Positions 20,107-43,595 of a DNA stretch of 64,000 nucleotides are shown here, piece after piece (positions within the stretch are counted from its first letter, which is position 1; every line of letters begins with the position of its first letter). The translations under genes were made by a program, and so were the position numbers. This DNA is from Bacteroidota bacterium (GTDB lineage Bacteria; Bacteroidota; Bacteroidia; Palsa-948): assembly GCA_003164895.1 (NCBI GenBank), contig PLUL01000039.1, positions 4,307 to 68,306 of the forward strand, given 5' to 3'. The notes under the pieces were generated by a model. It ran no database searches and was not told where the DNA came from. It saw only the letters and a list, made by a program, of their open reading frames with translations.

Positions 20107-20166
20107 ATATAATTTTTAATTGCCAAAGATATATTATTTGATTCTTATGAAATGATAACTTTGTCC

Positions 20167-29528: not shown

Positions 29529-30278
29529 ATGAATATTATAAATGCACCATGTGAAACTTGTGAAAGCAAAAATTGTTTCATTCAAAAATTGTCTCATGAA
29601 CAATTATCTTGTGTTGATTCGCAAAAACAAACGTTTAGTTTTTTTAGGAATCAAAATATTTTTTGGGAAAACGCAGCAGTGAATGGAGTTTATTTTATTA
29701 AAACAGGCAAAGTAAAAGTTTTTTCTATGGGAATAAATGACAGAGAAAAAATTGTACGTCTTGCTAGTGATGGGCATATTATTGGGCATAGAGGATATGG
29801 CGCAGAAAAATATCCGGTAAGTGCGGCAACACTTGATAAATCATTGGTTTGTTTTATTGACAATGCTACTCTTCATGAACTTTTCATGAATAATCCGGTT
29901 TTTAGTTATGCCATGATGATGTTTTATTCGCAGGAACTTAGAAAATCAGAACAGAGGGCAAAATATAATTCTCAAATGTCAAGCAGAGAAAGAATCATTA
30001 GTGCTCTTTTATATGCAAAAGAAACATTTGGATATTCTGATACGGAAGCATTTCCACCTACTATAAATGTGCATTTATCACGAGCCGAAATCGCAAGTCT
30101 TTCTGATACAACGAAAGAAGAAGTTTCCCGATCGCTCACAGTTTTAGAAAGAGATAATCTCATTATGAAAACAGGAAGGAGTATTCAGATCCTCAACGAA
30201 AAACAACTTCTGCATTTAATTAAAGATTACGGCATATATATGGTGGATGAAGAAAAAAAACAATTGAATCCGCTTTAG
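29529..30278 (+). CDS. Crp/Fnr family transcriptional regulator with N-terminal cysteine cluster (FNR-like)
   Basis: N-terminal cysteines at C8, C11, C16, C28, plus a conserved VCFID cysteine. It has a cNMP-binding-type beta-roll and a C-terminal HTH whose recognition helix TKEEVSRSL carries the E-x-x-S-R motif of E. coli FNR. Confidence 0.8.
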   Translation: MNIINAPCETCESKNCFIQKLSHEQLSCVDSQKQTFSFFRNQNIFWENAAVNGVYFIKTGKVKVFSMGINDREKIVRLASDGHIIGHRGYGAEKYPVSAATLDKSLVCFIDNATLHELFMNNPVFSYAMMMFYSQELRKSEQRAKYNSQMSSRERIISALLYAKETFGYSDTEAFPPTINVHLSRAEIASLSDTTKEEVSRSLTVLERDNLIMKTGRSIQILNEKQLLHLIKDYGIYMVDEEKKQLNPL

Positions 30279-30738: not shown

Positions 30739-31161
30739 ATGCGATTCAAAATTAAATTTCATCATTTGCTTCTTATGGGAGCTTTGATGTTCGGTTCTTG
30801 TCAAAAAGAATATGTAACACCTAAGCCATCTACACCACCACCACCACCCGGATCAATAAAATTTTCAGCAGATATTGTTCCAATCTTCATAACAAACTGT
30901 GGGAAATCAGGATGCCATGATGCTACTACTGATAAGGCAGGATTGAATTTATCTACTGCTGCTACAGCATATGAAGATCTTTTCGACAATAGTGAAATTG
31001 ATACAACAAATTTACCGAGCAGTGCTGCAACCAGTAATTTGTATATAAGAATGACGAGTACTAATACTCCTATGCCACCTCTTTCAGCAGGAGGCAAATT
31101 ATCGTCAACCGAAACAGATAAAGTTTTAGCATGGATAAAGGCAGGAGCAAAAAATAATTAA
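30739..31161 (+). CDS. Lipoprotein with planctomycete-cytochrome-c-like (PSCyt-type) domain carrying CX4CH instead of CXXCH
   Basis: Lipobox LMFGSC. IVPIFITNCGKSGCHD...LNLST...MPP...L...ETDKVLAWIKAGAKNN follows the PSCyt1-like pattern, but four residues separate the cysteines. Paralogue at 43194-43595. Confidence 0.55.
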   Translation: MRFKIKFHHLLLMGALMFGSCQKEYVTPKPSTPPPPPGSIKFSADIVPIFITNCGKSGCHDATTDKAGLNLSTAATAYEDLFDNSEIDTTNLPSSAATSNLYIRMTSTNTPMPPLSAGGKLSSTETDKVLAWIKAGAKNN

Positions 31162-31194
31162 ATAAATAAAAGAAACGATAAAAAACTAAAATAT

Positions 31195-32103
31195 ATGAAA
31201 TCAAAAATATTTCTTCTAATTCCTCTGCTTTGGGCAGGAGCAGCCATAGCGCAGGACAGCACCGGTACGGAAAAGCCAGCGAAAAAAAATCTGCCGGTGA
31301 AAAATGCATTTGAAAGCAACTGGATTATGAATAATCAAAGCATGGTTGTTCCTTTTGCAAATACACTTGAGTTTGACATTAACCATCGTTTTGGCACGGT
31401 TGAAAAGGGTGACGATATGCTCGGCATGTATGAACCTGCGAATATTCGTTTGGGAGTAACTTATACTCCGATGAAGAACCTACAAATAGGAGGAGGGATT
31501 ACGAAAGAATCAATGATGAATGATTTAAACCTTAAATGGAATATATTACAGCAAACTCGCTCAGGTAGTTTTCCGGTTTTTATTACTTATTACGGAAATG
31601 TAGTGGTTAACGGGACAAGAAACGGAGTTAATTGGTCTATCAAAGGTGTTGATGGAAAAGACAGTATTGTAAATGAAAAATTTCCTAATGATGCCAGCCG
31701 TTTTTCTTATTTCAATCAGTTAATTATTGGAAGAAAATTTTGTGACTGGCTTTCTGTACAGGTAGCCGTTTCCTATGCTCATTATAATTTAATTGATACC
31801 ACAAATGGAAATCCTCACGATAGGAAGAATGATAATCTGGCAATAAGTATAGCCGGACGCGTTAAAACTACAGCAACAATGTCTGTTCTCTTTGCTTACG
31901 ATATGCCATTGAATCCGGCAACAGGAGTAAAACCAAATTTAGCATTGGGAGTTGAGTGGTCAACCGGCTCTCATGCATTTCAAATATTTCTTTCGCCATA
32001 CACATCCATCATCAATCAGCAAGATATGGTCTACAATACCAATGATTTCACAAAGAAACAAGTTGCCATCTGTTTTAATATTTCAAGACTTTGGAATTTT
32101 TAA
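31195..32103 (+). CDS. Outer-membrane beta-barrel protein (HRFG-motif family)
   Basis: Signal peptide, motif LEFDINHRFG, alternating beta-strand pattern, C-terminal NISRLWNF (terminal Phe). Paralogue at 43621-44535 (FEFTIQHRFG, ...ITKRWNYF). Confidence 0.6.
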   Translation: MKSKIFLLIPLLWAGAAIAQDSTGTEKPAKKNLPVKNAFESNWIMNNQSMVVPFANTLEFDINHRFGTVEKGDDMLGMYEPANIRLGVTYTPMKNLQIGGGITKESMMNDLNLKWNILQQTRSGSFPVFITYYGNVVVNGTRNGVNWSIKGVDGKDSIVNEKFPNDASRFSYFNQLIIGRKFCDWLSVQVAVSYAHYNLIDTTNGNPHDRKNDNLAISIAGRVKTTATMSVLFAYDMPLNPATGVKPNLALGVEWSTGSHAFQIFLSPYTSIINQQDMVYNTNDFTKKQVAICFNISRLWNF

Positions 32104-32164
32104 TTAAAAAAATAAATAGAAAATAAAATTTAAAACACAAACCGCCTCTTTAAAAAATAACCCT

Positions 32165-32992
32165 ATGAAAAAATCAATTACCCTAACATTAGCAGGCATC
32201 GTTGCCATTGGAGCTATGTCGTTCGACATTTTAACGAGCAATGGAAAAGCAGGAAAGACCGGTGCATATACTGAAGGCAATTGCACAAGTTGCCACAGTG
32301 ATTATGCTGTCAATTCAGGACCTGGATCCATTGCGATTACATCCACTCCGTCACTTACAAACGGTTATGTTGCCGGAACTACTTATACAGTAAATGTAAC
32401 AGTAGCACAGTCAGGAGTTTCTCTTTTTGGATTTGATTTTGAAGCCTTAACAAATGCAACTACCAATGGAGGAACGCTTGCCGTTGTTTGTACTGATACT
32501 AAAACCTTAGCTTCATCAAGTCGGACTGATGTTGTTCACACAGGAACCGGTAATGCTACCGCAGATTCACATACATTTTCTTTTGTGTGGACCGCACCCA
32601 CCACTGGTACTAGCACCGTTACTTTCTATGCATCTGGAAATGCCGCTGATGGAGATGGATCAACAAGTGGTGACTATATATATACAACATCATTACCCAT
32701 TTCTAATGTTACCAGTGTAGAAGAAAACGTTGAAGCAAACTTTAACCTCTCAGTTTTTCCAAATCCGGTTTCTGATAATGTTAATGTTAAATTTACTTTA
32801 ATGGAAACATCTGATATTACCATTGATCTGATGGACATTAACGGGAACAAAATTGCCAATATTATTTCTGAAAACGGAATGAAAGGCGACATCAACAAAA
32901 CCTTTAATGTTTCTTCTTATTCCAAAGGAGTTTATTTTCTGCAAATAAAAAATGAGAAAGCATCATCTATTAAAAAATTAATTATTAAATAA
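32165..32992 (+). CDS. T9SS-sorted protein with N-terminal CXXCH-containing Reeler/DOMON-like beta-sandwich domain
   Basis: Signal peptide, GNCTSCHSDY (CXXCH) at the start of the mature domain, FSFVWTAPTTGTSTVTFYASGNAADGDG (Reeler-like pattern), and T9SS tail VFPNPVSDNVNVKF...GVYFLQIKNEKASSIKKLIIK. Confidence 0.6.
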   Translation: MKKSITLTLAGIVAIGAMSFDILTSNGKAGKTGAYTEGNCTSCHSDYAVNSGPGSIAITSTPSLTNGYVAGTTYTVNVTVAQSGVSLFGFDFEALTNATTNGGTLAVVCTDTKTLASSSRTDVVHTGTGNATADSHTFSFVWTAPTTGTSTVTFYASGNAADGDGSTSGDYIYTTSLPISNVTSVEENVEANFNLSVFPNPVSDNVNVKFTLMETSDITIDLMDINGNKIANIISENGMKGDINKTFNVSSYSKGVYFLQIKNEKASSIKKLIIK

Positions 32993-33061
32993 TATTTATT
33001 TGGCGCATGAAATCACTTCGGATATCAGAAAAAAAATATCTGAAATAAAATTGAAAAGTTT

Positions 33062-33970
33062 ATGGAAGGGAACGACAATAACAACGATCGCAGGAATTTT
33101 TTGAAGGCAGGATTGCTAACAGGCGGTTCATTATTAGCCGCATCTGCATTGCAATCTGTTTTTTCATCTGAAAAAGATTCCGGTGAAAAAGTAAAAGTGC
33201 TTACCACCGATGGGAAATTGGTGGAAGTGGATTCTACTCACATCAAGAAAGCTCAACCTTGTTGTGTCAATTCCAAGGAATCGCGTGTTGGAATTCCTGA
33301 TAAAAAATTTGTGATGGTAATTGATATGTCTCGTTGTAAAGATGCACTCAAATGTCAGAAGTCATGCGCTAAGCATCATGCATTACCCGAAGATGTGAAA
33401 TGGCTAAAGGTTTTAAAAATGCAGGAGTCGGAAGAAACTGCTCCATACTGGATGCCGAAACCATGTTTTCATTGCGATCATCCGCCTTGCGTGAAAGTTT
33501 GTCCGGTTGATGCAACTTATAAAAGGAGTGATGGAATCGTGTTGATAGATAATGAGCGTTGTATTGGTTGCAGATTTTGCATGGCAGCTTGTCCGTATTC
33601 CGCAAGATCATTTAATTGGGGAGAACCAAAAATCCCTACTGATGCAAATTATTCTCCCGAAACAAGTGTGCCAAGAAAAAAAGGAACAGTTGAGAAATGT
33701 GATTTCTGTCCTGATATGTTAAGGCAAGGAAAACTTCCGCATTGTGTTTCAGCTTGTCCGAATGGTGTATATTATTTTGGTGATTTGAATGAAGATACGG
33801 TTACCAATGGTGATGAAACACTTAGGTTTAGTCAGCTTATTAAGGATAAAGCAGGTTACAGAGAATTGGAATCACTCGGTACAGAACCGAGCGTTTATTA
33901 TTTGCCAGCTGCAAATCGAATTTTTCCTTTTAAAGATAGAGTGGAAAATAAAGAGGAACATCAACATTAA
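33062..33970 (+). CDS. Tat-exported 4Fe-4S ferredoxin-type subunit (NrfC/PsrB/ActB2-like), module 1
   Basis: Twin-arginine motif DRRNFLKAGLL. Cluster motifs CFHCDHPPCVKVCP, CIGCRFCMAACP and CDFCPDMLRQGKLPHCVSACP are present. The first cluster motif is atypical (CKDALKCQKSC). Confidence 0.8.
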   Translation: MEGNDNNNDRRNFLKAGLLTGGSLLAASALQSVFSSEKDSGEKVKVLTTDGKLVEVDSTHIKKAQPCCVNSKESRVGIPDKKFVMVIDMSRCKDALKCQKSCAKHHALPEDVKWLKVLKMQESEETAPYWMPKPCFHCDHPPCVKVCPVDATYKRSDGIVLIDNERCIGCRFCMAACPYSARSFNWGEPKIPTDANYSPETSVPRKKGTVEKCDFCPDMLRQGKLPHCVSACPNGVYYFGDLNEDTVTNGDETLRFSQLIKDKAGYRELESLGTEPSVYYLPAANRIFPFKDRVENKEEHQH

Positions 33971-34032
33971 TTTATGCAATTTATTTTTCAAAAAAAATTA
34001 AAGAGTGATTTGAATAAATAATTTTTCAATTT

Positions 34033-35403
34033 ATGGAAGACATCGTAAAACCGGCAAATGACGCAGAAGCAATTAAAATGTTGCACCAATTTAATGAGGA
34101 TTTATTGCCAAAAAAATTTGGTAAGATTGGTGTAACATGGGTGCTTTTTCTTTGCGTTATCATTATTAATGGATTATTTTTTTACGTCAAACAATTAAGA
34201 AATGGATTAAGTGTAACCGGAATGGGCGACATTGTTTCATGGGGAATTTATATATCCAATTTTGTTTTTTTTGTAGCAATAAGTTTGGTCGGTTCATTAA
34301 TTACTGCCGTACTTTACCTTTTAAATGTAAACTGGCGCTCACCGCTTACACGGATTGCAGAAATTATTGCAGTCGCAGCCATCGTTTTTGCCGGTCTTAT
34401 TATTATAGTAGATATGGGGCGACCGGATCGAATTCTGAACATGTTTATTTATGGAAGAATTCAATCGCCAATAGTTTGGGATGTGATAGTTGTAATGACT
34501 TATATGACGATAAGTCTTTTACTTCTATATTTTCCGTTGCTTCCTGGAATTGCTTTTTGCAGAGACCGTCTTCCTGGTATTCCAAAATGGCAGAAATGGA
34601 TGTACAAATTCTTATCATTTGGATGGCAATGGAAACCGGAACAATTCAAAATTGTGAAAAGAGCTATTGCAATTTTATCGGTACTAATTATTCCGGTTGC
34701 GTTTAGCATTCACACCGTTACTTCGTGGTTATTTGCTACTACATATCGTCCGGGCTGGGACAGCAGCATTTTCGGTCCTTACTTTGTAGCCGGTGCATTT
34801 ATGGTGGGAGCTGGTGGAGTTATTGCTGCCATGTACGTTCTTGTAAGATTTTTTCCGCGCTACGACAAGTATATCACCGATAAACATTTTGACCGCATGG
34901 GAATTTTACTTGCGTTGCTCTCCATGGTTTATTTATACTTTAATATAAATGAATACATGGTTCCCGGTTATAAAATGAAAGGTGAAGATGCACAATACCT
35001 CACAGAATTATTTGTAGGAAAATTTGCGATGATGTTTTGGTCAGTTCAGGTTTTTGGAATGATAATTCCCATTATTCTTCTTTTGTTCAAAAAATTCAGA
35101 CGCCCTTTTCCGATTTTTATTATTTCGATTTGTGTGATTGTCGGAGCATGGTTCAAACGTTTTCTGATTGTCATTCCTACTTTACTTCATCCCTTTCTTC
35201 CAATTCAGGAGGTTCCCGAAAAATTTAAAGTATACATACCCACTCTTGCGGAATGGTCAATCACTCTTGCCTCATTGGCTGGAGCGTTATTAATCATCAC
35301 AGTTTTTATTCGTTATTTTCCAATTATTTCTATTTGGGAAGTGGCTGAAGAAAGAGGAATAGGACATGATGTAATTTATAAACATTTAAACGAAAAAGAA
35401 TGA
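34033..35403 (+). CDS. NrfD/PsrC/ActC-like polytopic quinone-interacting membrane subunit, module 1
   Basis: 456 aa with ~10 hydrophobic helices. Family-like segments include VSWGIYISNFVFFVAISLVGSLI, DMGRPDR and GPYFVAGAF. It lies directly after the FeS gene, the classic NrfC-NrfD order. Confidence 0.75.
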   Translation: MEDIVKPANDAEAIKMLHQFNEDLLPKKFGKIGVTWVLFLCVIIINGLFFYVKQLRNGLSVTGMGDIVSWGIYISNFVFFVAISLVGSLITAVLYLLNVNWRSPLTRIAEIIAVAAIVFAGLIIIVDMGRPDRILNMFIYGRIQSPIVWDVIVVMTYMTISLLLLYFPLLPGIAFCRDRLPGIPKWQKWMYKFLSFGWQWKPEQFKIVKRAIAILSVLIIPVAFSIHTVTSWLFATTYRPGWDSSIFGPYFVAGAFMVGAGGVIAAMYVLVRFFPRYDKYITDKHFDRMGILLALLSMVYLYFNINEYMVPGYKMKGEDAQYLTELFVGKFAMMFWSVQVFGMIIPIILLLFKKFRRPFPIFIISICVIVGAWFKRFLIVIPTLLHPFLPIQEVPEKFKVYIPTLAEWSITLASLAGALLIITVFIRYFPIISIWEVAEERGIGHDVIYKHLNEKE

Positions 35404-36347
35404 AAAATAAAATATCATCTCAGAGGCGGATACTTTCACACATTTATTCATTAGTGATTTTGCTATTAATAAATGGATTTGTTCTCGTTGGAAATAAGGC
35501 AATGTGTCAGGGCAAACAGGAAGGTGCAGAAAAAAAATCCATTTCCATCTCTCTAAGCTGTAAAACTTCCGATGGATTAAAACAAGTTAAAGTAAAAGCT
35601 ACTCGCAGAGAGAATAAAAAAAGTATTCCGCTAGATAATGCAAAATCTCCTATCGCATTATATTTTGATAAAGTTGGAGATAAAGATCCATCAAATGGAA
35701 CTGGACTTATTGGTAAACTTTATTTGAATGATGATGGAGAAGTGAATTTTGATCTTCCAGATAATTTTAATTCACAAACATCTGGGTTACATCAATTCAA
35801 ATTTATTGTCAAGTTGGAATCAGATCCATTGTATGAAGATGCTCAAGAAGAAATTTCTATTTCAGATGCAAAAATCAATATTGATTATTTCGGAAAGGAT
35901 TCTATCAAGACAGCAACAGCAACATTAACCGAATGGAAAGATACTGCGTATGTTCCTGTTTCAGGAGTAGAAATGAAACTATCCATCAAAAGAGCATTCA
36001 GTCTGTTTTCCTTTGGCGGTGAAGGACTTACTACGGATAAAAGCGGAAATGTATCTGCTGATCTTCCTTTGGATATTCCCGGAGAACCAGGTGGAAAAAT
36101 TACAATTGTTGCAAGTGTGATTGACAACGATACTTATGGTTCGCTTGAAAGTACAAAGAAAGTAGAGTGGAGTGTTCTTCCCAAAACAAACGAAGAAATT
36201 GGACGAACACTTTGGTCAAGAGGAAATAACGCGCCAATTTCATTAGTCATTATTTCTTGTTCCATCATTGCGGTAATCTGGGGAATACTGATTTATCTTG
36301 TTTTCCAGTTATTTAAAATAAAAAAAATAAGTAAACAACAAGCGTAA
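35400..36347 (+). CDS. Uncharacterised periplasmic beta-rich protein with C-terminal membrane anchor, module 1
   Basis: ATGA start/stop overlap with the NrfD-like gene (35400-35403). It has an N-terminal hydrophobic leader and ~250 aa without Cys/His cofactor motifs. A C-terminal TM (ISLVIISCSIIAVIWGILIYLVFQLF) is followed by a basic tail. Paralogue at 40219-41094. Confidence 0.6.
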   Translation: MKNKISSQRRILSHIYSLVILLLINGFVLVGNKAMCQGKQEGAEKKSISISLSCKTSDGLKQVKVKATRRENKKSIPLDNAKSPIALYFDKVGDKDPSNGTGLIGKLYLNDDGEVNFDLPDNFNSQTSGLHQFKFIVKLESDPLYEDAQEEISISDAKINIDYFGKDSIKTATATLTEWKDTAYVPVSGVEMKLSIKRAFSLFSFGGEGLTTDKSGNVSADLPLDIPGEPGGKITIVASVIDNDTYGSLESTKKVEWSVLPKTNEEIGRTLWSRGNNAPISLVIISCSIIAVIWGILIYLVFQLFKIKKISKQQA

Positions 36348-36401
36348 AATAAAACACAAACCAAAAATCAATACTAACACTAAAAACCAAGGAGGCAATT
36401 T

Positions 36402-36854
36402 ATGAAATCAAATCCAAAACAACCAACTTTTGCAGCAGTTACAACGGTAATCATGCTGTTTGTATTTGTAGGAATGCTCAGTATGTCATTCATGAATAAT
36501 TCTCAGGATGATAAAAAGAAAAAACCATGGGTAGTACTGGAAAAATCGAAAGCAATGAAAAACCCTGTGAAAGCGGACGCTACTTCACTATCGAAAGGAA
36601 AAGAATTATATACTAAACATTGTAAATCGTGCCATGGATCCGCAGGAAAAGGCGACGGACCTAAAGCAAAAGAATTAGATACTCCAACCGGTGATTTTAC
36701 TGACAAATCATTTCAGGCGCAGACTGAAGGAGAGATTTTTTACAAAGCTAAAGAGGGTAGAGATGATATGCCAAGCTTCAAGAAAAAACTTCCGGAAGAC
36801 GAAGATATTTGGACGATCGTTAATTATGTGCGTTCATTATCAGGAGCGAAATAG
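36402..36854 (+). CDS. Membrane-anchored class I monohaem cytochrome c, module 1
   Basis: N-terminal TM segment, CKSCHG haem motif, distal Met region GRDDMPSF, conserved C-terminal WTIVNYVRSL. Confidence 0.8.
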   Translation: MKSNPKQPTFAAVTTVIMLFVFVGMLSMSFMNNSQDDKKKKPWVVLEKSKAMKNPVKADATSLSKGKELYTKHCKSCHGSAGKGDGPKAKELDTPTGDFTDKSFQAQTEGEIFYKAKEGRDDMPSFKKKLPEDEDIWTIVNYVRSLSGAK

Positions 36855-36935: not shown

Positions 36936-37424
36936 ATGCAACTTGAAAAAGAAATACACCAGGTCAAGCCATTCAGGAACGACTATCATAAAGCGTCTGT
37001 AAATATTGTTTATACAGGAAAATGGATGATGCAGTTTCATGCAGATATATTAAAACCCTACGGCTTAACAATTCAGCAATATAATATTCTACGAATCTTA
37101 CGAGGTCAATATCCAAATGCCACAACGGTAAAACTTATTCGTGAACGGATGCTCGATCGTATGAGCGATGCATCTCGAATCGTTGAACTCCTCCGAAAAA
37201 AAGGATTAGTTGAGAGAACTATTTGCGCAGGAGACAGAAGAAGGATGGATGTCGTAATCACTCAACTTGGTATTTATCGGTTGATTGAAATTGAAAATGA
37301 AAACGAGCGTATGGATAAACGTCTCTTTAGTTTAGATGATCAAGAAATTATTCAACTGAATACACTTCTTGATAAAATCAGGAATATTCCTGATATTTTG
37401 CCTTCTGTTGTACCTTCATTATAG
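36936..37424 (+). CDS. MarR family transcriptional regulator
   Basis: 162 aa winged-helix pattern: LTIQQYNILRILRG...RMLDRMSDASRIVELLRKKGLVER...DRRRMDVVIT. Paralogue at 48569-49030. Confidence 0.8.
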   Translation: MQLEKEIHQVKPFRNDYHKASVNIVYTGKWMMQFHADILKPYGLTIQQYNILRILRGQYPNATTVKLIRERMLDRMSDASRIVELLRKKGLVERTICAGDRRRMDVVITQLGIYRLIEIENENERMDKRLFSLDDQEIIQLNTLLDKIRNIPDILPSVVPSL

Positions 37425-37704: not shown

Positions 37705-38700
37705 ATGATAGACCAAAATGAACAAAATGGAAACGGCTCAGGAGCTGAATCTAAGGCAACAGGCAGACGAAACTTCCTTAAGTTCGGTGCTTTAGCAGCA
37801 GGACTTACTGTAGTGGGTGGTGGACTACAGAAAGTTTTGTCTCAAGATAAAAAGGAAAACCCAGATACCACCGTGTTCACACGAGATGGAAAGGTTTTCA
37901 AAGCCGACAAAGCATGTTTGCATGAATACACTGCTCCGCCGGTAACAAATGCCGAAGCCCGCATAGGTATTCCCGGTAAAAAATTTACTATGGTGTTTGA
38001 TCTTGCAAAGTGCGATGGTTGTAAAAAATGTACTGAATCCTGTCAGGCAATGCACTTTACTGAATCCGACCGTGAATGGATAAAAGTGTATAAGATGAAG
38101 GATGCTGAAACAACCGCTTCCTATTATATGCCCAAACCTTGTATGCATTGCGACAATCCTCCTTGCACAAAAGTTTGTCCGGTTGGAGCAACTTTCAAAA
38201 GAGAAGATGGTATTGTTCTAATTGATGATGATAGATGCATAGGTTGTCGTTCTTGCATGGCTGCATGTCCTTACTCTGCACGTTTTTTCAATTGGTCAGA
38301 TCCAATGCAACCTGTAGCTGTTGCTAATATCCCTTATTCCCCAGAACATGGATTTCCACGCCAAAGAGGAACGACTGAAAAATGTGATTTCTGTCCACAC
38401 ATGATTCGTGAAGGGAAAATGCCCGCTTGTGTATCTGGATGTCCAATGCAAGCAATTTATTTTGGCGATCAGAATGAAGATGCTGTAACAAATTCAGCCG
38501 GGGTTACTGTAAAATTCAGCCAGCTTTTAGAAGATAATAGTGCTTATCGATTATTGGAAGAATTAGGAACAGAGCCACGTGTATATTATTTGCCTCCTAA
38601 AAACAGGAAATATCCTAAGCCAGATATGGAATCTATAGGAAAGGAAAATAAGATTGAAGGCGGAAAATCTGATACAGGAATGGGAAATATGGCTATGTAA
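37705..38700 (+). CDS. Tat-exported 4Fe-4S ferredoxin-type subunit (NrfC/PsrB/ActB2-like), module 2
   Basis: Twin-arginine motif GRRNFLKFGAL and four complete cluster motifs: CDGCKKCTESC, CMHCDNPPCTKVCP, CIGCRSCMAACP, CDFCPHMIREGKMPACVSGCP. Confidence 0.85.
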   Translation: MIDQNEQNGNGSGAESKATGRRNFLKFGALAAGLTVVGGGLQKVLSQDKKENPDTTVFTRDGKVFKADKACLHEYTAPPVTNAEARIGIPGKKFTMVFDLAKCDGCKKCTESCQAMHFTESDREWIKVYKMKDAETTASYYMPKPCMHCDNPPCTKVCPVGATFKREDGIVLIDDDRCIGCRSCMAACPYSARFFNWSDPMQPVAVANIPYSPEHGFPRQRGTTEKCDFCPHMIREGKMPACVSGCPMQAIYFGDQNEDAVTNSAGVTVKFSQLLEDNSAYRLLEELGTEPRVYYLPPKNRKYPKPDMESIGKENKIEGGKSDTGMGNMAM

Positions 38701-38748
38701 AAATGACAAAACAAAAAATTAATCATAAGAAAATTAAATAAAAAAAAT

Positions 38749-40188
38749 ATGAGCAAAATAATTTATCCAGACAGTCATATTCCGGCAGAACTTTCAGAAG
38801 AAGTTATCCGCGAAGACAGCATGCGCCCAACTATGAAATGGGGACGAAGCACTCAACTTTGGCTTGGCTTTTTATTTATGGTTTTTGGTTGGGGACTTTA
38901 TGCATATATACATCAATTAAGACATGGACTGGGAGAAACAGCCATGCGTAATTATGTTTCCTGGGGATTATACATTTCCACTTTTGTATTTTTCATCGGC
39001 ATCAGCCATTCCGGCACACTTGTTTCAGCGATTCTTAGAATCACAAAACAAGACTGGAGAATGCCGATCACACGAATTGCAGAGTTGATGACTTTTGTAT
39101 CTCTTTGTTTTGGCGGTCTTATGCCTATTATTGATTTAGGTCGTGCAGATCGCATTGCAAACCTTGTCATTTTCGGAAGAGTACAATCACCACTCATGTG
39201 GGATGTGATGTCAATCGTAACTTATTTTACAGGAAGCACAATCTTCTTATGGCTTCCTATGATACCAGACATGGGACTGATGAGAGACAGATTAACAGTA
39301 GTTGATACTCCGTTCAAAAAATTCAAAAAGTGGCTTTACAAAACATTGGCGATTGGTTGGACAGGTTCAAAATCTCAGTGGAAACGCTTGGAGTTAGTGA
39401 TGACAATTATGACAATCATTATTATTCCTGTAGCAGTTTCTGTTCATACAGTTGTAAGTTACATTTTCGCGATGACACTTCGCCCTGGATGGAACAGTAC
39501 TATATTTGGTCCGTACTTTGTGGCTGGTGCATTGTACAGCGGTTCGGCAGTAGTAATTCTTGCCATGGTTATTTTCCGAAAACTTTATCATCTTGAAAAA
39601 TATATCACCTATAGACATTTTGATCTGATGGGTCGAGTGGTATTGTCGCTGACACTTATATATGGATATCTGAACCTGAATGAATATTGGATTCCTGCCT
39701 ATAAAATGGCAACTTCAGAAGGCCATTTGTTACACGATTTATTTAGTGGAAGTTATTCTACCGCTTTTTGGTTATGCCAGTTCGGAACAGTACTTTTTCC
39801 AATTGTTGTAATGTGTTTTCCAAAAGGACGAACACCGGGAGCGCTTACTGTCGTTTGTATATTTATAGCAATTGGAGCTTGGGTAAAACGTTATCTCATT
39901 GTGGTTCCTACACTATTGCATCCTTTTTTACCAATACAAGATGTTCCATTGACTTGGTCGCAATATTTTCCTAATTGGGTTGAATGGTCAGTTACGATGG
40001 CAGCATTTTCAGGAATGGTAATCATTGTAACTCTTTATGCGAAATTTTTTCCAATGATGTCAATGTGGGAAGTTGTGCACGGAGCTCACATAGAAGAAAG
40101 TAAAAGGGTTGCATTTGAAAAAGTTGAGCATGCAGAAGAAATAAATGAAGCAAAAACAAATCATAAAAAAGCAACAGTAGTTGGATAA
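38749..40188 (+). CDS. NrfD/PsrC/ActC-like polytopic membrane subunit, module 2
   Basis: 479 aa, clear paralogue of 34033-35403 (VSWGLYISTFVFFIGISHSGTLV, DLGRADR, GPYFVAGALY). Confidence 0.78.
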   Translation: MSKIIYPDSHIPAELSEEVIREDSMRPTMKWGRSTQLWLGFLFMVFGWGLYAYIHQLRHGLGETAMRNYVSWGLYISTFVFFIGISHSGTLVSAILRITKQDWRMPITRIAELMTFVSLCFGGLMPIIDLGRADRIANLVIFGRVQSPLMWDVMSIVTYFTGSTIFLWLPMIPDMGLMRDRLTVVDTPFKKFKKWLYKTLAIGWTGSKSQWKRLELVMTIMTIIIIPVAVSVHTVVSYIFAMTLRPGWNSTIFGPYFVAGALYSGSAVVILAMVIFRKLYHLEKYITYRHFDLMGRVVLSLTLIYGYLNLNEYWIPAYKMATSEGHLLHDLFSGSYSTAFWLCQFGTVLFPIVVMCFPKGRTPGALTVVCIFIAIGAWVKRYLIVVPTLLHPFLPIQDVPLTWSQYFPNWVEWSVTMAAFSGMVIIVTLYAKFFPMMSMWEVVHGAHIEESKRVAFEKVEHAEEINEAKTNHKKATVVG

Positions 40189-40218
40189 TGCAAAATAATA
40201 AATAGAAATATAACAACA

Positions 40219-41094
40219 ATGAACAATATGAAAATAACCAGAATTACATTAGCAGCAGTTCTTTTCTGCGGAGTTTCATTTGCGCAAGCTCAAAAAGCAG
40301 AAAGCAGTCTTCAATTATCATTTTCTAAGCAAACTGATAATAGTAAAACTATAAGCGCATTAGTGATGGGAAAAAAGAGTGGCGAAAAATTTAAGCCCGC
40401 ATCAAATGCTCACATCAGTTTTTATGCACAGAAAGAAAAAGAATTAGTTCTTCTTTCAAAAACGGTATCCGATGATCGTGGCAAAGCAACATTAACTCTT
40501 CCTAAAGATTTACCATTGGATGCAGATCATTTTTTCGGTATAACTGTAAAAGTTGAAAACGATGATACGTTTGAAAACTCAGAAGAAAAATTAAAATTAA
40601 AGGATGTAAATCTTTCTCTTAAACTTAATCCGCATGACACAGCGAGAGTCGCAACTGCAACTGTTACTGAAATTACCGATGAAGGAACTGAGAAAGCAGT
40701 AAAAGATGTTTCGATTAATTTTTATGTGCAGCGCTTATTTGGAAAAATGCCAGCAGCAGAAGATCACACGGTTAAAACAGATGAAAAGGGTATAGCAGTT
40801 TTTTCTTTTCCTAAAGGAATTCCTGGTGATACTGCTGGAAGTATGACAGTACTTGCTATGATTGAGGATAACGATTCGTATGGAACAGTGGAAAGTAAAA
40901 GTTCCACCAATTGGGGAGTTGTTGTGCCTCTCGAAAAAGATCCGTTTCCTCGAGCTATTTGGGGAGCAAAAGCACAATGGGGAATGATAATCACGCTTAC
41001 AATTCTTTATGGTGGAGTATGGTCGTCATACATCTTCATGGCTTTTCAATTAAGAAAAATAAAAAAAGAAGAAAATTTAACAACCAATAATTAA
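40219..41094 (+). CDS. Uncharacterised periplasmic beta-rich protein with C-terminal membrane anchor, module 2
   Basis: Signal peptide ending AQA, no cofactor motifs. Blocks shared with 35400-36347 include ATATVTEITDEG vs ATATLTEWKD, GIPGDTAGSMTVLAMIEDNDSYGTVES vs IPGEPGGKITIVASVIDNDTYGSLES. C-terminal TM plus basic tail. Confidence 0.6.
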   Translation: MNNMKITRITLAAVLFCGVSFAQAQKAESSLQLSFSKQTDNSKTISALVMGKKSGEKFKPASNAHISFYAQKEKELVLLSKTVSDDRGKATLTLPKDLPLDADHFFGITVKVENDDTFENSEEKLKLKDVNLSLKLNPHDTARVATATVTEITDEGTEKAVKDVSINFYVQRLFGKMPAAEDHTVKTDEKGIAVFSFPKGIPGDTAGSMTVLAMIEDNDSYGTVESKSSTNWGVVVPLEKDPFPRAIWGAKAQWGMIITLTILYGGVWSSYIFMAFQLRKIKKEENLTTNN

Positions 41095-41119
41095 TCACTA
41101 ATACTTAAAAATAAACACA

Positions 41120-41590
41120 ATGAAAACTATTATCACACAAGTAAGCAAAATGAAACTTTCAGGTTTCATTTTAATTGGAGCACTTGCAATTTGCAGTGCG
41201 TTTATTCCAAAGCCAAAGGGAGAAGTAATTAATTTAGTTGGTGGACAGGAAAAATGGGTTGCACCGGCAGATGCTGATAAGAAAACCAATCCGAATGCTT
41301 CTGATCCCAAAAGTCTTGCTACAGGTAAAGACATTTTTATTCAAAAATGTGCTATTTGCCATGGTAAAAAAGGAAAAGGTGATGGACCAAAGAGCGCAGA
41401 ATTAGACAAACCAGTGCCAGATTTTACAAAAGGCGATTTCAGCAAACAAAGCGATGGTGCGATCTTCTGGAAAATTGCCGAAGGAAGAAAACCAATGCCT
41501 TCTTTCAAAAGTGAACTTTCTGAAGTGCAACGCTGGCAGGTAATAATTTATTTAAGAGAACTTGGAAAGACCACTACTTCACAAAAATAA
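41120..41590 (+). CDS. Class I monohaem cytochrome c, module 2
   Basis: CAICHGKKGKGDG, GRKPMPSF, WQVIIYLREL; same family as 36402, 46539 and 53531. Confidence 0.8.
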   Translation: MKTIITQVSKMKLSGFILIGALAICSAFIPKPKGEVINLVGGQEKWVAPADADKKTNPNASDPKSLATGKDIFIQKCAICHGKKGKGDGPKSAELDKPVPDFTKGDFSKQSDGAIFWKIAEGRKPMPSFKSELSEVQRWQVIIYLRELGKTTTSQK

Positions 41591-41659
41591 AAGAAAATAA
41601 TAATAACAACTATTTACCTATACCAACAAATCAATTAACCAATTAATAATACAATTAAC

Positions 41660-43120
41660 ATGAAAAATTTAAACAAAAAATTAGTGTCTGCCTTTATGAT
41701 GGGGGCATTCATTGTACTGGGGTTGTCGAATTGCAAAAAAAAGGATGAGGTACTTGACTTACCACCCGCACCCGCACCAACACCAGTATTAAATACTGAT
41801 ACTTTGTATTCAGTTCCTGGAACTGCCACACTTCAAGCAATAGGCGGAGCTGCGTGGGATGGTACAATTGAAGGAGTTTGGAATAATGCACCTGCATTAA
41901 ATGTAACCGGTACAGTGCCAGATTTAGGAAATGGAACTTTTACAGGATATGTTGGTAACAGTACTCAAATTAAATTACGTTCCTTATACGATGCGAGCAA
42001 TATTTATTTTCTTTTTGAATTTGCTGCTGACCGTCCGAACGTGCTAAGTGCACAATGGTATTTTAATCCAACAACACATCTTTGGGCGCAGGAAGCTACC
42101 GCTGCCAGTTTAACTAATTTGAATCCTGATGGAAGTTACAGACCTCCTTTTTCACAGGATGAAATTGTAATGATGTTTAATATTTCAGATGCAACATTTA
42201 ATACATTATCTTGTTATGCTGCTTGCCATGTCATGTCTTCGTATGGATATTCAGTTACACCTTCAGGCGGATACATGGCTACAAATGGTCCTAGTGAAAG
42301 ATTAGATGTGTGGAGAATGCGCACGTTTCAGACTATGCCTATGAACCAAGTAAATGACTGTTTTATTGATGATGGTTCAAGCATTGGATTAGGAGAAAGT
42401 GGTGTGTTAGATAAAAATATGGTTCACAGCGATTGGCAGGTAAATAATGGTCCGGCATCTTCTGTACCTCCAAGCTTACAATCACCTGGAGTAGTGGTAT
42501 CAGCACCTACTGCAACATCAAAAGTTTATGCAGCAGATGGAGGATTCAGCAATAAGCAAACATTAAAACTAAGCGGAGGATCAAATCCGGCGAATGCATT
42601 CCCTGCTGCTAATGGAGGAAAAGTATCGGTTCCAATTTGGGTAATAGAAGGTGCTGCCGGAACTAATCCATATAGCAGTAAACAAGGTGCAATCTTTACT
42701 TCAGATACCGGTGCAACAGCAGTTATGGTTATAGGAGTTGATTCTACTACAGGAATTTTACATCTAAAAGATGGAAATACTTTAGATCCTCGAACTTCAA
42801 CATCAGGTACTGCTTATCAGCAAGTAGGAACCGGAGATGGACCAAATTGTATTCCTGGTTCTATTGTTAGTGTATATACCGGTAGTCGTGGTGATGTAAC
42901 ATGTAATGGATTTTGGACAGGATCAGGTTGGAGATTCTTATTCAAACGTGCATTGAAAACAAGTGATAATGTTAATGACGTTGATTTCTCTTCTCTTGGC
43001 AATCAGCCATTTGGTGTTGGCGTAATGTTTAACGGCGCTGATAACGAACATGCTATTGTAGCTGGCTTGACATTGCATTTTGGTCAAAGAGGAAGTGCTC
43101 GTATTAAAAAAACAAAATAA
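41660..43120 (+). CDS. Lipoprotein with ethylbenzene-dehydrogenase-like (EB_dh, DOMON superfamily) haem-binding-type domain
   Basis: Lipobox GLSNC. Segments fit my recollection of the EB_dh family pattern: WNNAPALNV...IKLRSLYDASNIYFLFEF, LDVWRMR, GWRFLFKRALKTSDNVNDVDF, GVGVMFNGADNEH. It contains CYAACH (CX3CH). Confidence 0.5.
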   Translation: MKNLNKKLVSAFMMGAFIVLGLSNCKKKDEVLDLPPAPAPTPVLNTDTLYSVPGTATLQAIGGAAWDGTIEGVWNNAPALNVTGTVPDLGNGTFTGYVGNSTQIKLRSLYDASNIYFLFEFAADRPNVLSAQWYFNPTTHLWAQEATAASLTNLNPDGSYRPPFSQDEIVMMFNISDATFNTLSCYAACHVMSSYGYSVTPSGGYMATNGPSERLDVWRMRTFQTMPMNQVNDCFIDDGSSIGLGESGVLDKNMVHSDWQVNNGPASSVPPSLQSPGVVVSAPTATSKVYAADGGFSNKQTLKLSGGSNPANAFPAANGGKVSVPIWVIEGAAGTNPYSSKQGAIFTSDTGATAVMVIGVDSTTGILHLKDGNTLDPRTSTSGTAYQQVGTGDGPNCIPGSIVSVYTGSRGDVTCNGFWTGSGWRFLFKRALKTSDNVNDVDFSSLGNQPFGVGVMFNGADNEHAIVAGLTLHFGQRGSARIKKTK

Positions 43121-43126
43121 GTTAAT

Positions 43127-43158: not shown

Positions 43159-43193
43159 AAAACCAAAAACGATTAACAATTAAAATACTCATC

Positions 43194-43595
43194 ATGAAAA
43201 AAGCACTAATATTTATGACTGCAGTGGGCATGTTGTTAATTGCTGTTGTAACAGGTTGTCAAAAAAACGCAACATTTATTTACAAAGCCCCGACAGTTGT
43301 AGTTACTACTCCGGTTTCTTTTAGTAAAAATCTGGTTCCACTTTTTACTGCAAATTGTGCTCTGAGCGGTTGTCATGTATCAGGAGGTCAGACTCCGAAT
43401 TTAACGGCAGCTTCAGCATACGCATCGTTATCAGGCGGCAATTTTTTTAATGTTAGCAATCCGTCAAGCAGCATAATATACGAGCGATTAACAGGAACAC
43501 TTACTCCGGAAATGCCTTTTGGAAAACCCAATAACCCATCCAACATTAATGCTCTGGTATTGGCGTGGATTACACAAGGAGCAAAGAACAATTAG
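43194..43595 (+). CDS. PSCyt-like lipoprotein with CX4CH motif (paralogue of 30739-31161)
   Basis: Start taken at ATG 43194 (MKKALIFMTAVGMLLIAVVTGC, lipobox). Also LVPLFTANCALSGCHVSGGQTPNL...PEMPFG...ALVLAWITQGAKNN. The longer ORF-track start overlaps the upstream gene. Confidence 0.55.
   Translation: MKKALIFMTAVGMLLIAVVTGCQKNATFIYKAPTVVVTTPVSFSKNLVPLFTANCALSGCHVSGGQTPNLTAASAYASLSGGNFFNVSNPSSSIIYERLTGTLTPEMPFGKPNNPSNINALVLAWITQGAKNN

What the first reader, a model, noticed from the sequence alone, without database searches (positions are those of the whole stretch)
30739..32992. CX4CH PSCyt-like lipoprotein + HRFG-motif OM barrel + T9SS-sorted CXXCH Reeler/DOMON-like protein as an operon head
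Three consecutive genes sit immediately upstream of module 1. They encode a lipoprotein whose cytochrome-like domain has C-GKSG-CH instead of CXXCH, a 302-aa barrel with the conserved LEFDINHRFG motif, and a secreted or surface T9SS cargo beginning with NCTSCH. The lipoprotein + barrel pair is duplicated at 43194-44535, and the CXXCH N-domain recurs in the 944-aa protein at 49512. If the CXXCH is a real haem c site, this would be a c-type cytochrome exported by T9SS. I am not aware of a characterised example. This is mechanistically plausible because T9SS moves folded periplasmic proteins.
Basis: partly seen in the sequence, partly recalled or inferred. Interest (0 to 1): 0.68.

Follow-up and report, generated by a model that had tools for sequence, protein, structure and literature searches.

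The report
Surface haem proteins on a respiratory cluster
Three neighbouring genes in an uncultured Bacteroidota genome encode a small lipoprotein cytochrome, an outer-membrane barrel and a secreted protein with a haem-attachment motif on an unusual fold; together with the genes next to them they look like an undescribed route for carrying respiratory electrons to the cell surface, but no haem or electron transfer has been measured.

Summary

- **Gene 1 (30739-31161)** is a lipoprotein c-type cytochrome domain. Its family profile matches the iron oxidase cytochrome FoxE (E 5e-11). It carries C-GKSG-CH in place of CXXCH.
- **Gene 2 (31195-32103)** is a DUF5777 outer-membrane barrel of 12-14 strands.
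- **Gene 3 (32165-32992)** is an NCBIfam "choice-of-anchor V" domain plus a T9SS sorting tail. The domain has a Reeler fold, not a DOMON fold, behind an N-terminal C-Xn-CH.

The Cys…Cys-His triad is present in all 149 family representatives checked. Its spacing varies (n=2, 3, 4 or 5), and a second His is about 97% conserved.

The lipoprotein and barrel are an almost obligate pair: 73 of 78 barrels have the lipoprotein directly upstream. The usual order is EB_dh, lipoprotein cytochrome, DUF5777, cytochrome c, DsrO/NrfC-like, DsrP/NrfD-like, 300-aa anchored protein.

The T9SS protein is an occasional addition, absent from all 80 barrel-centred loci. It is still tied to the pair by synteny (27 and 16 of 82 loci) and by one natural fusion to a DUF5777 barrel.

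My best reading is the outer-membrane and surface end of a quinol-linked electron chain. Haem binding, direction and substrate are untested. I found no paper on any of it.

The parts
29529..30278 (+). FNR/CRP-family regulator upstream of the cluster, with a Cys-rich N-terminus
   Evidence: NCBIfam Fnr subfamily E 3.9e-18, below cut-off. A Crp-type gene precedes the lipoprotein-barrel pair in many related loci.
30739..31161 (+). FoxE-like / PSCyt1-like monohaem cytochrome c lipoprotein. Lipobox Cys21; C54-GKSG-C59-H60 at nt 30898-30918; M112-P113; C-terminal WIKAGAKNN.
   Evidence: Pfam PSCyt1 21.4 bits against a cut-off of 22. Family alignment has C59, H60, M112 and P113 invariant. Profile against PDB: FoxE E 5.3e-11.
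31195..32103 (+). DUF5777 outer-membrane beta-barrel. Signal peptide then Q20; HRFG at nt 31384-31395; invariant H64 and H260.
   Evidence: PF19089 E 1.3e-66. AF2 pLDDT 85.3, pTM 0.81, 12-14 strands. Foldseek best matches are FapF, OmpG and COG4313 barrels. Invariant columns.
32165..32992 (+). T9SS cargo. Choice-of-anchor V domain (aa ~24-180): a Reeler-fold sandwich behind N-terminal C40-TS-C43-H44 (nt 32282-32296), with conserved H125. T9SS type A tail at aa 197-274 (nt 32753-32992).
   Evidence: NF041895 99.8 bits, PF18962 62.3 bits. AF2 pLDDT 85.5. F-spondin reeler TM 0.70. Conservation.
33062..33970 (+). Module 1: DsrO/NrfC-like periplasmic 4Fe-4S protein (RRNFLK twin-arginine motif read by eye)
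   Evidence: NCBIfam DsrO 200.6 bits, cut-off 200. Follows DUF5777 in about half of related loci.
34033..35403 (+). Module 1: DsrP/NrfD-like integral membrane quinone-interacting subunit
   Evidence: NCBIfam DsrP 141.8 bits, below cut-off 350. PF03916 NrfD on the orthologues.
35400..36347 (+). Module 1: 315-aa protein with a C-terminal membrane anchor and no family match. It follows NrfD in nearly all related loci where sequence continues.
36402..36854 (+). Module 1: periplasmic monohaem class I cytochrome c (CKSCH)
   Evidence: Weak NCBIfam matches to a CcoP-type cytochrome c and to cytochrome 579.
37705..41590 (+). Module 2: a second set of DsrO-like (37705-38700), DsrP-like (38749-40188), 291-aa anchored protein (40219-41094) and cytochrome c (41120-41590)
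41660..43120 (+). EB_dh-type (ethylbenzene dehydrogenase gamma-like) lipoprotein, a haem-b-binding family by Pfam annotation. It sits in the usual position upstream of the lipoprotein-barrel pair.
   Evidence: PF09459 53 bits, cut-off 33.3. EB_dh lies upstream of the pair in 23 of 53 loci.
43194..43595 (+). Second FoxE-like lipoprotein cytochrome (C-ALSG-CH)
43621..44535 (+). Second DUF5777 barrel (TFEFTIQHRFG)
   Evidence: PF19089 E 6.8e-66.
49512..52346 (+). 944-aa T9SS cargo: N-terminal choice-of-anchor V domain (C-TA-CH), seven SprB repeats, T9SS tail
   Evidence: NF041895 71.1 bits, SprB E 1.2e-48, PF18962 57.9 bits. An orthologous 940-aa gene follows the short choice-of-anchor V gene in L003.

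Best explanation
The three genes are the outer-membrane and cell-surface end of a conserved Bacteroidota electron-transfer gene cluster.

Core, inferred from conserved gene order:
- A DsrO/NrfC-like iron-sulfur protein, a DsrP/NrfD-like membrane subunit and a 300-aa anchored protein exchange electrons between the quinone pool and a periplasmic monohaem cytochrome c.
- That cytochrome connects to a FoxE-like lipoprotein cytochrome, which is always encoded next to a small DUF5777 outer-membrane barrel. An EB_dh-type protein (haem-b-binding family by Pfam annotation) or a YceI protein is often encoded nearby.

Addition in this genome:
- One barrel-lipoprotein pair has gained a T9SS-exported protein. 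Its N-terminal domain is a Reeler-type sandwich carrying a covalent-haem motif (C-Xn-CH) and a second conserved His, so it is probably a bis-His haem c protein.
- After export, the T9SS tail would be exchanged for a surface anchor. That places the haem domain at the far end of the protein. In the 944-aa paralogue it sits at the tip of a stalk of SprB repeats.
- This domain would be the final contact with an extracellular electron acceptor or donor such as iron, manganese or humic quinones. FNR-type regulators would control the system.

Shown: the sequence motifs, folds, family memberships, conservation, synteny and one natural fusion.
Inferred: haem attachment, protein contacts, direction of electron flow and the substrate.
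For: - The lipoprotein is a cytochrome c domain. Its profile matches FoxE (E 5.3e-11), the hydrazine synthase alpha haem domain (4e-6), PccH and cytochrome c6. The CX4CH aligns to FoxE's CXXCH with a two-residue gap, and the Met-Pro and WIxxGA motifs are shared. C59, H60, M112 and P113 are invariant.
- The choice-of-anchor V domain keeps its motif. C-Xn-CH is present in 149 of 149 representatives of a family of 9566 clusters and in all full-length copies among 85 genome loci. H125 is conserved in 84 of 87. Variable spacing with a fixed 'CH' fits a haem c site better than a fixed metal site. CX3CH and CX4CH are accepted haem motifs (PMC5566968).
- Export is plausible. T9SS tail scores are far above cut-off. 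The domain always sits at the N-terminus, ahead of Ig-like spacer repeats.
- The three parts are coupled. The lipoprotein is adjacent to choice-of-anchor V in 27 of 82 loci and DUF5777 in 16 of 82. P0089 is a natural fusion of the domain to a DUF5777 barrel, found in two independent assemblies and preceded by two lipoprotein-type cytochrome genes.
- The pair is coupled to the quinol module. The lipoprotein is upstream of DUF5777 in 73 of 78 cases, cytochrome c is downstream in 25 of 48, and NrfC/NrfD in 24-25 of 48. The window's gene order recurs in L085 and L003.
- There is no terminator-like site between 30783 and 33874, that is, between the three genes or before module 1.
- DUF5777 is a confident 12-14-strand barrel.
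Against: - No experiment exists; haem attachment is inferred from sequence alone.
- Spacings of n=5-6 (and n=1 in two paralogues) have no precedent known to me as haem c sites. Some members may therefore not bind haem, or the site may be something else.
- A 12-14-strand barrel is too narrow to hold a cytochrome domain the way MtrB holds MtrA. One or two single-haem proteins can hardly span an outer membrane, so how electrons would cross is unclear.
- The choice-of-anchor V gene is absent from all 80 barrel-centred metagenome loci. It stands without lipoprotein or barrel neighbours in 55 of 82 of its own loci. Its job may therefore be more general than serving this cluster.
- In the fusion protein the haem domain is N-terminal to the barrel. 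By ordinary barrel topology that is the periplasmic side, unless the linker runs through the pore.
- Co-transcription is not shown. The promoter scan does not cover Bacteroidota promoters.
Confidence: 0.5

Rival explanations
1. This is a periplasmic respiratory or detoxifying chain for a soluble substrate. DUF5777 is only a substrate-specific channel that lets a small molecule into the periplasm. There the lipoprotein cytochrome, the EB_dh haem protein, cytochrome c and the NrfC/NrfD-like module oxidise or reduce it. No electrons cross the outer membrane. The T9SS protein is a loosely associated surface protein.
For: - The barrel resembles small channels such as FapF, OmpG and COG4313. It is too narrow to house a cytochrome.
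- All redox partners are single-haem or iron-sulfur proteins, as is typical of periplasmic chains.
- The choice-of-anchor V gene is absent from 80 of 80 barrel-centred loci.
- By general knowledge, EB_dh-type subunits normally work inside periplasmic enzyme complexes.
Against: - No catalytic subunit (molybdopterin, multicopper, multihaem reductase) is present in any of the conserved clusters.
- The near-obligate pairing of a lipoprotein cytochrome with a barrel (73 of 78) is what porin-cytochrome systems look like; plain substrate channels do not show it.
- The fusion of the choice-of-anchor V domain to the barrel argues for direct contact between a haem-motif domain and the barrel.
Confidence: 0.25
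2. The Cys-Xn-Cys-His of the T9SS protein is not a haem site. The two cysteines form a disulfide, or the triad binds a metal. The Reeler-type domain is a binding or adhesion module, as Reeler domains are in animals. Its neighbourhood with cytochromes in this window is secondary.
For: - The Cys spacing runs from 1 to 6 residues in close relatives, which is looser than in any well-studied haem c family.
- The sandwich part is homologous to the F-spondin reeler domain, which has no haem.
- Partner domains are adhesin-like repeats: SprB, PKD and Ig.
- Most family members have no redox neighbours within 10 kb.
Against: - The His directly after the second Cys is kept in 149 of 149 representatives, whatever the spacing. 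A disulfide alone does not explain this.
- A second His is 97% conserved.
- The same unusual spacings (notably xxSG-CH) occur in the neighbouring lipoprotein, which is demonstrably a cytochrome c fold.
- The commonest neighbour is that cytochrome, in 27 of 82 loci.
- CX3CH and CX4CH are known haem sites.
Confidence: 0.2
3. This is a haem or iron acquisition system. The secreted domain captures haem or iron outside the cell, and the barrel imports it.
For: - The protein is on the surface or secreted and has conserved His and Tyr residues.
- Haem biosynthesis genes lie nearby in the window.
Against: - No TonB-dependent receptor or ABC importer is found in the conserved cluster.
- The motif is that of covalent attachment, which would not release haem.
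- The steady partners are respiratory-type proteins.
Confidence: 0.05

Closest known systems
FoxE, the dihaem c-type cytochrome proposed as the Fe(II) oxidase of Rhodobacter ferrooxidans SW2 (PDB 5MAB)
   Same: It is the best solved relative of the lipoprotein family (profile E 5.3e-11). They share the N-terminal helix before the haem motif, the Met-Pro axial-ligand motif and the C-terminal WIxxGA(K/P)N helix. The Pfam family is also the same, PSCyt1.
   Different: FoxE is a soluble periplasmic protein with two domains and canonical CXXCH. The window protein is a single-domain lipoprotein with CX4CH, and its relatives have 2-6 spacer residues. It is always paired with a DUF5777 barrel, which the fox operon lacks as far as I know.
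Porin-cytochrome conduits (MtrCAB / PCC type) and the fused cytochrome-porin Cyc2
   Same: A cytochrome gene is paired with an outer-membrane barrel gene, next to periplasmic cytochromes and a quinol-linked inner-membrane module. A further haem protein sits on the cell surface. The fusion P0089 (haem-motif domain plus barrel) has the same layout as Cyc2, with an N-terminal monohaem part and a C-terminal barrel.
   Different: All haem proteins here are single-haem, and the barrel has only 12-14 strands, against 26 in MtrB by general knowledge. The families are unrelated (DUF5777, Reeler fold). The surface protein would leave by T9SS, not T2SS. Sequence similarity to Cyc2 was not tested.
Reeler domain (PF02014; F-spondin, reelin, insect immune proteins; N-terminal domain of animal ferric-chelate reductase 1, Reeler-DOMON-cytochrome b561)
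   Same: The sandwich of the T9SS protein matches the F-spondin reeler domain by fold (TM 0.70) and by profile (E 2e-4). Eleven of 52 longer relatives pass Pfam Reeler at E<=1e-4. By general knowledge, the animal ferric reductase combines Reeler, DOMON and a transmembrane electron carrier. This cluster echoes that with a Reeler-type protein, an EB_dh (DOMON-related) protein and a membrane quinol module.
   Different: The bacterial domain has an extra N-terminal segment carrying C-Xn-CH, which the animal domains lack; the alignment starts after it. The window protein itself does not reach Pfam Reeler at E<=0.1. No Reeler domain is known to me to bind haem.
DsrOP / NrfCD / NosGH-type two-subunit quinol modules
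   Same: The genes right after the three are a twin-arginine iron-sulfur protein (DsrO 200.6 bits, at cut-off) and an NrfD-family membrane protein. A monohaem cytochrome c comes with them, as with NosGH and NosC1/C2 (general knowledge).
   Different: The cluster has no DsrMKJ, NrfA/B, NosZ or molybdoenzyme partner. A conserved 300-aa anchored protein of unknown family follows NrfD in nearly all related loci where sequence continues.
Extracellular single-haem cytochrome domains on multidomain secreted proteins (the Cellvibrio japonicus Cbp2D X183 domain, with the YceI-like X158 domain of Cbp2E), recalled from memory
   Same: A single c-type haem domain is carried on a secreted multidomain protein outside a Gram-negative cell. 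YceI-like proteins occur in the same context.
   Different: The fold, the secretion route and the taxon all differ. No carbohydrate-active enzyme is linked here.

Membership tests
c-type cytochrome, PSCyt1 / FoxE-like domain (gene 30739-31161) | Export signal that places the domain in the periplasm, where haem is attached | tested here: met
   Signal peptide with lipobox MFGS-C21 read from the sequence. Cys21 is nearly invariant in the family. A lipobox is present in most of 39 relatives.
c-type cytochrome, PSCyt1 / FoxE-like domain (gene 30739-31161) | Canonical CXXCH haem-attachment motif | tested here: not met
   The motif is C-GKSG-CH (CX4CH). Family spacing is n=4 in 21, n=2 in 8, n=6 in 7, n=5 in 5 and n=3 in 1. 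The second Cys and the His are invariant. CX4CH is an accepted variant; n=5-6 is not known to me.
c-type cytochrome, PSCyt1 / FoxE-like domain (gene 30739-31161) | Significant profile similarity to solved c-type cytochromes, including the distal Met | tested here: met
   FoxE E 5.3e-11, hydrazine synthase haem domain 4e-6, PccH 5e-4, cytochrome c6 7e-4. M112-P113 is invariant and aligned to FoxE's MP. Pfam PSCyt1 scores 21.4 bits against a cut-off of 22.
c-type cytochrome (both haem-motif proteins) | Covalently bound haem | not testable with these tools
   Needs purified protein: haem stain, pyridine haemochrome, mass spectrometry.
DUF5777 (PF19089) outer-membrane barrel | HMM match above the gathering score, and a beta-barrel fold with a signal peptide | tested here: met
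   224.8 bits against a cut-off of 23.1. AF2 pTM 0.81 with 12-14 strands. Foldseek probability 1.0 to outer-membrane barrels. Q20 after the signal peptide is invariant.
choice-of-anchor V domain (NCBIfam NF041895) | HMM match above the curated cut-off | tested here: met
   99.8 bits against a cut-off of 42 for 32165-32992, and 71.1 bits for 49512-52346.
Reeler domain (PF02014) | Pfam HMM match for this protein | tested here: not met
   No Reeler hit at E<=0.1 for the window protein. Eleven of 52 longer relatives hit at E<=1e-4, and some homologues carry a precomputed PF02014 hit.
Reeler domain (PF02014) | Reeler-type beta-sandwich fold | tested here: met
   Foldseek to F-spondin reeler 3coo_B gives TMt 0.70 and 2zot_A gives 0.65. 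The family profile against the F-spondin chains gives E 2e-4.
DOMON domain | Fold or profile similarity to DOMON, cellobiose dehydrogenase cytochrome or EB_dh domains | tested here: not met
   No such match in Pfam, in the 50 listed Foldseek PDB matches or in the profile search of PDB. The EB_dh match belongs to a different gene, 41660-43120.
T9SS cargo (type A C-terminal domain) | C-terminal sorting domain above cut-off, plus an N-terminal signal peptide | tested here: met
   PF18962 62.3 bits (cut-off 27) and TIGR04183 45.1 bits (cut-off 23), covering aa 197-275. Five T9SS-tailed proteins are encoded in the window, so the organism uses T9SS.
T9SS cargo (type A C-terminal domain) | Actual T9SS-dependent export and surface attachment | not testable with these tools
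   Needs localisation in wild type against a T9SS mutant.
Porin-cytochrome complex (MtrAB / PCC) | A multihaem periplasmic cytochrome inserted in a wide barrel (20 strands or more) | tested here: not met
   All the cytochromes have one motif each. The barrel has 12-14 strands.
Cyc2-type fused cytochrome-porin | A single polypeptide with an N-terminal monohaem segment and a C-terminal barrel | tested here: not met
   In the window these are separate genes. The layout is met only by the relative P0089. Homology to Cyc2 was not tested.

The most novel reading that the evidence does not exclude
The choice-of-anchor V domain is a new kind of c-type cytochrome. It would be a Reeler-fold sandwich with covalently bound, bis-His haem, attached through a C-Xn-CH site whose spacer varies from 2 to about 6 residues. 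It would be folded and loaded with haem in the periplasm, exported by T9SS and displayed on the surface, in some proteins at the tip of long stalks. Together with FoxE-like lipoprotein cytochromes and the DUF5777 barrel it would form a previously unknown outer-membrane electron conduit. That conduit would link a DsrOP-like quinol module to extracellular iron, manganese or humic substances across many Bacteroidota.
Probability: 0.3. Interest if true: 0.85.

Novelty: new variant of a known kind. Interest (0 to 1): 0.62.

Why it matters
- **Abundance without a known route.** Bacteroidota are abundant in lakes, soils, sediments and guts, yet no route for exchanging electrons with the outside is known for them.
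- **How common the parts are.** The choice-of-anchor V family has about 9,600 sequence clusters at 50% identity. DUF5777 had 676 relatives in one search. The conserved cluster has no published function.
- **What follows if the haem is real.** This would be the first c-type cytochrome known to use T9SS. It would also be the first haem-binding Reeler-type domain and a new small-barrel version of a porin-cytochrome system.
- **Practical consequences.** Iron and humic redox cycling would need to be revisited in habitats where these bacteria dominate. Current gene-based screens count multihaem proteins and Cyc2 and would miss this system.
- **Maturation.** The wide range of Cys spacings would also say something new about what the cytochrome c maturation system of these bacteria can handle.

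Tried and rejected
- **Single-sequence searches of solved structures.** For all three proteins these gave nothing useful. Profiles were needed. The DUF5777 profile found no solved relative.
- **DOMON reading.** Rejected for the T9SS protein.
- **Bis-His haem site inside the barrel.** I considered that the two invariant histidines of DUF5777 (H64, H260) might form such a site. From the strand pattern both lie in the hydrophobic, outward-facing register. H64 is at the far end of strand 1, and H260 lies just after a tight turn at the opposite end of the barrel. This is unlikely, but I could not check it without coordinates.
- **FNR-type binding site.** A search for TTGA-N6-TCAA upstream of 30739 found none there, and only 2 in the whole window against 4.2 expected.
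- **Promoter and terminator scan.** It was uninformative for Bacteroidota promoters.
- The first attempt to scan genomes with the wide alignment failed for lack of a conserved stretch.
- **HMM drift.** My iterated HMM for the choice-of-anchor V domain drifted into T9SS tails.
- **Literature.** No hits for DUF5777. Choice-of-anchor with haem returned two papers, neither relevant. No hits for T9SS with multihaem or CXXCH. Six unrelated papers for type IX secretion with c-type cytochrome.
- **The ~410-aa barrels.** The barrels next to the other cytochrome genes have no Pfam, NCBIfam or PDB match.


Full report
**1. What is there**

Intergenic gaps are 33, 61 and 69 nt, and no terminator-like site lies between 30783 and 33874.

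- **Gene 1 (30739-31161, 140 aa).** It has a lipoprotein signal with Cys21, then C54-GKSG-C59-H60, a Met-Pro pair at 112-113 and a C-terminal WIKAGAKNN.
- **Gene 2 (31195-32103, 302 aa).** It matches Pfam DUF5777 at E 1.3e-66.
- **Gene 3 (32165-32992, 275 aa).** It matches the NCBIfam domain "choice-of-anchor V" (NF041895, 99.8 bits, cut-off 42). It also has a T9SS type A tail (PF18962 62.3 bits, TIGR04183 45.1 bits).
- **Paralogues.** They are the lipoprotein at 43194-43595 (C-ALSG-CH), the DUF5777 at 43621-44535, and the 944-aa protein at 49512-52346. The last has a choice-of-anchor V domain, seven SprB repeats and a T9SS tail.

**2. The lipoprotein is a cytochrome c domain**

On its own it just misses the PSCyt1 threshold (21.4 bits against 22). 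A profile of it and 14 relatives settles the matter:

| PDB match | E-value |
|---|---|
| FoxE, putative iron oxidase dihaem cytochrome (5mab) | 5.3e-11 |
| Hydrazine synthase alpha, haem domain | 4e-6 |
| PccH | 5e-4 |
| Cytochrome c6 | 7e-4 |

- In the FoxE alignment the family's C-xxxG-CH lines up with FoxE's CXXCH with a two-residue gap. The Met-Pro and WIxxGA motifs are shared.
- Within the family the second Cys, the His and the Met-Pro are invariant.
- The first Cys moves. Among 39 relatives in fetched loci the spacer is 4 residues in 21 motifs, 2 in 8, 6 in 7, 5 in 5 and 3 in 1.
- CX3CH and CX4CH are accepted haem c sites (PMC5566968). I know of no precedent for spacers of five or six.

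**3. The T9SS protein**

- The AF2 model is confident (pLDDT 85.5).
- The best single-domain structural match of the N-domain is the reeler domain of F-spondin (TM 0.70 and 0.65).
- A family profile also finds the F-spondin reeler chains by sequence (E 2e-4). That alignment starts only after the Cys-Cys-His segment.
- So "Reeler-like" is right, "DOMON-like" is not, and the haem-type motif sits on an N-terminal extension that animal Reeler domains lack.
- The family is very large: 9566 clusters at 50% identity with E<=1e-3.
- All 149 best representatives have C-Xn-CH within the first 110 residues: n=2 in 96, n=4 in 38, n=3 in 14 and n=5 in 1.
- In 85 copies from genome assemblies the picture is the same, apart from truncated ORFs and two paralogues with n=1.
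- A second histidine (H125) is kept in 84 of 87, along with Y68, Y74, W142, Y155 and D170.
- Distant members that end in a different membrane-anchor tail, not a T9SS tail, also keep CXXCH.
- A fixed "CH" with a movable first Cys, plus a second conserved His, is what a covalent bis-His haem site would look like. It is harder to explain as a plain disulfide or a fixed metal site. This is an inference, not a measurement.
- The domain is always N-terminal. In longer proteins it is followed by PKD, SprB and Ig-like repeats and then the T9SS tail. After anchoring by the C-terminus it would sit furthest from the cell.

**4. The barrel**

- With 59 sequences, AF2 gives pLDDT 85.3 and pTM 0.81, with 12-14 strands.
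- Foldseek finds only generic small outer-membrane barrels at TM 0.45-0.5: FapF, OmpG, COG4313 and autotransporter translocators.
- Invariant residues include Q20 directly after the signal peptide, H64 of the HRFG motif and H260.
- From strand periodicity both histidines seem to face outward at opposite ends of the barrel. I could not check coordinates.

**5. How the three genes relate to each other and to their neighbours**

Around 82 choice-of-anchor V genes from genome assemblies, all uncultured Bacteroidota:
- The lipoprotein cytochrome is a neighbour in 27.
- DUF5777 is a neighbour in 16, always together with the lipoprotein.

One representative, P0089, is a natural fusion of the choice-of-anchor V domain (CTECH) to a DUF5777 barrel. 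It is found identically in two independent assemblies and is preceded by two lipoprotein-type cytochrome genes.

Around 80 DUF5777 genes from metagenomes, the counts are:

| Neighbour of DUF5777 | Loci |
|---|---|
| Lipoprotein cytochrome directly upstream | 73 of 78 |
| Monohaem cytochrome c downstream | 25 of 48 |
| NrfC-like and NrfD-like genes downstream | 24-25 of 48 |
| EB_dh-type or YceI gene upstream | 28 of 53 |
| Choice-of-anchor V gene within 10 kb | 0 of 80 |

- The typical order is EB_dh, lipoprotein cytochrome, DUF5777, cytochrome c, NrfC-like, NrfD-like, 300-aa anchored protein.
- The window holds two copies of this set. One is 30739-36854. The other is 37705-44535 with the module first.
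- In the first copy the T9SS gene sits where the cytochrome c gene usually is.
- A close relative (L085, 77% identical barrel) has the same arrangement, T9SS gene included. So does L003 in a different order.
- The NrfC-like protein scores as DsrO at the cut-off (200.6 bits). The NrfD-like protein scores best as DsrP, below cut-off.
- No catalytic subunit is present in any version of the cluster.

**6. Interpretation**

- The lipoprotein-barrel pair belongs to the core of a widespread, unstudied cluster. The cluster joins a quinone-linked inner-membrane module, periplasmic cytochrome c and outer-membrane components.
- The closest functional analogy is a porin-cytochrome conduit or Cyc2. The parts are unrelated and much smaller, so how electrons would cross the membrane is unclear.
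- The T9SS protein is an optional extra part. It is tied to the pair by synteny and by a fusion, and it is most simply read as a surface haem protein that extends the chain outward.
- FNR-type regulators at 29529, 45036 and 45758, and the oxygen-independent HemN nearby, suggest use under low oxygen. This is inference.
- The main rival is that the barrel is only a substrate channel and the chain is purely periplasmic.
- The second rival is that the Cys-Cys-His of the Reeler-type domain is not a haem site.

**7. Novelty**

- The families have database names but no function.
- Full-text searches found nothing on DUF5777. They found nothing linking T9SS to c-type or multihaem cytochromes as cargo and nothing on haem in bacterial Reeler domains.
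- Surface cytochromes and porin-cytochrome systems are known, so I class this as a new variant of a known kind. There is a fair chance that it contains a new cytochrome fold and a new export route.
- Nothing here was measured; the first experiment is a haem stain on the purified domain.

Noticed in passing
window 46539-48493 and 53531-55229: There are two more 'monohaem cytochrome c followed by an outer-membrane-like ~410-aa protein' pairs. The first is cyt c 46539-46961 plus ORF 46987-48204 plus a small CRRCH protein at 48218-48493. The second is cyt c 53531-53956 plus ORF 53973-55229. The two large proteins are paralogues (29% identity, E 7e-39) with no Pfam, NCBIfam or PDB match. The same triple occurs in L042 near a choice-of-anchor V gene. 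This may be a second type of cytochrome-barrel pair.
   Followed up: partly
P0089; L083 959-2329 and L084 540-1910: A natural fusion of a choice-of-anchor V domain (CTECH) to a DUF5777 barrel, without a T9SS tail. It is identical in a JGI and a Logan assembly and is preceded by two lipoprotein-type cytochrome genes. The layout recalls Cyc2 or a classical autotransporter.
   Followed up: partly
L060 1068-4066; loci L002, L008, L009, L011, L013, L020, L026, L027, L059, L065, L069: Unusual Cys spacings occur in both haem-motif families. L060 has four tandem choice-of-anchor V paralogues, two with C-X-CH (n=1). Many lipoprotein cytochromes next to choice-of-anchor V genes have C-G-[ST]-[DN]-N-x(1-2)-CH (n=5-6). 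I did not test whether these bind haem or need a special haem lyase.
   Followed up: partly
window 35400-36347 and 40219-41094: A protein of about 300 aa with an N-terminal signal and a C-terminal membrane anchor follows the NrfD-like gene in nearly every related locus where sequence continues. It matches no family. It looks like a dedicated third subunit of this quinol module.
   Followed up: no
L001 2820-3374, L085 6986-7534, L086 1255-2043 and several metagenome loci: A YceI-family gene (by general knowledge, a family of periplasmic polyisoprenoid or quinone binders) often sits beside the lipoprotein-barrel pair, sometimes in place of the EB_dh gene. The window itself has no YceI gene in the region examined.
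   Followed up: partly
window 29529-30278, 45036-45761, 45758-46477; 36936-37424, 48563-49030: Three FNR/CRP-family regulators with Cys-rich N-termini, two of them in tandem, and two MarR-type regulators that look closely similar by eye are interspersed with the redox genes. No canonical FNR box was found upstream of 30739.
   Followed up: partly
window 1740-4688, 6547-9429, 10353-13310: Three further large T9SS-tailed proteins lie in the same window: an S8 peptidase, a protein with seven PKD_6 repeats, and a 985-aa protein with no other domain hit. With the two choice-of-anchor V proteins that makes five T9SS cargo genes in 64 kb.
   Followed up: no
window 20152-21189 and 27490-28848: Haem biosynthesis genes lie close to the cluster. 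HemE (URO-D, E 8.6e-134) is confirmed. The ORF at 27490-28848 reads like an oxygen-independent coproporphyrinogen oxidase (HemN) by eye only.
   Followed up: no
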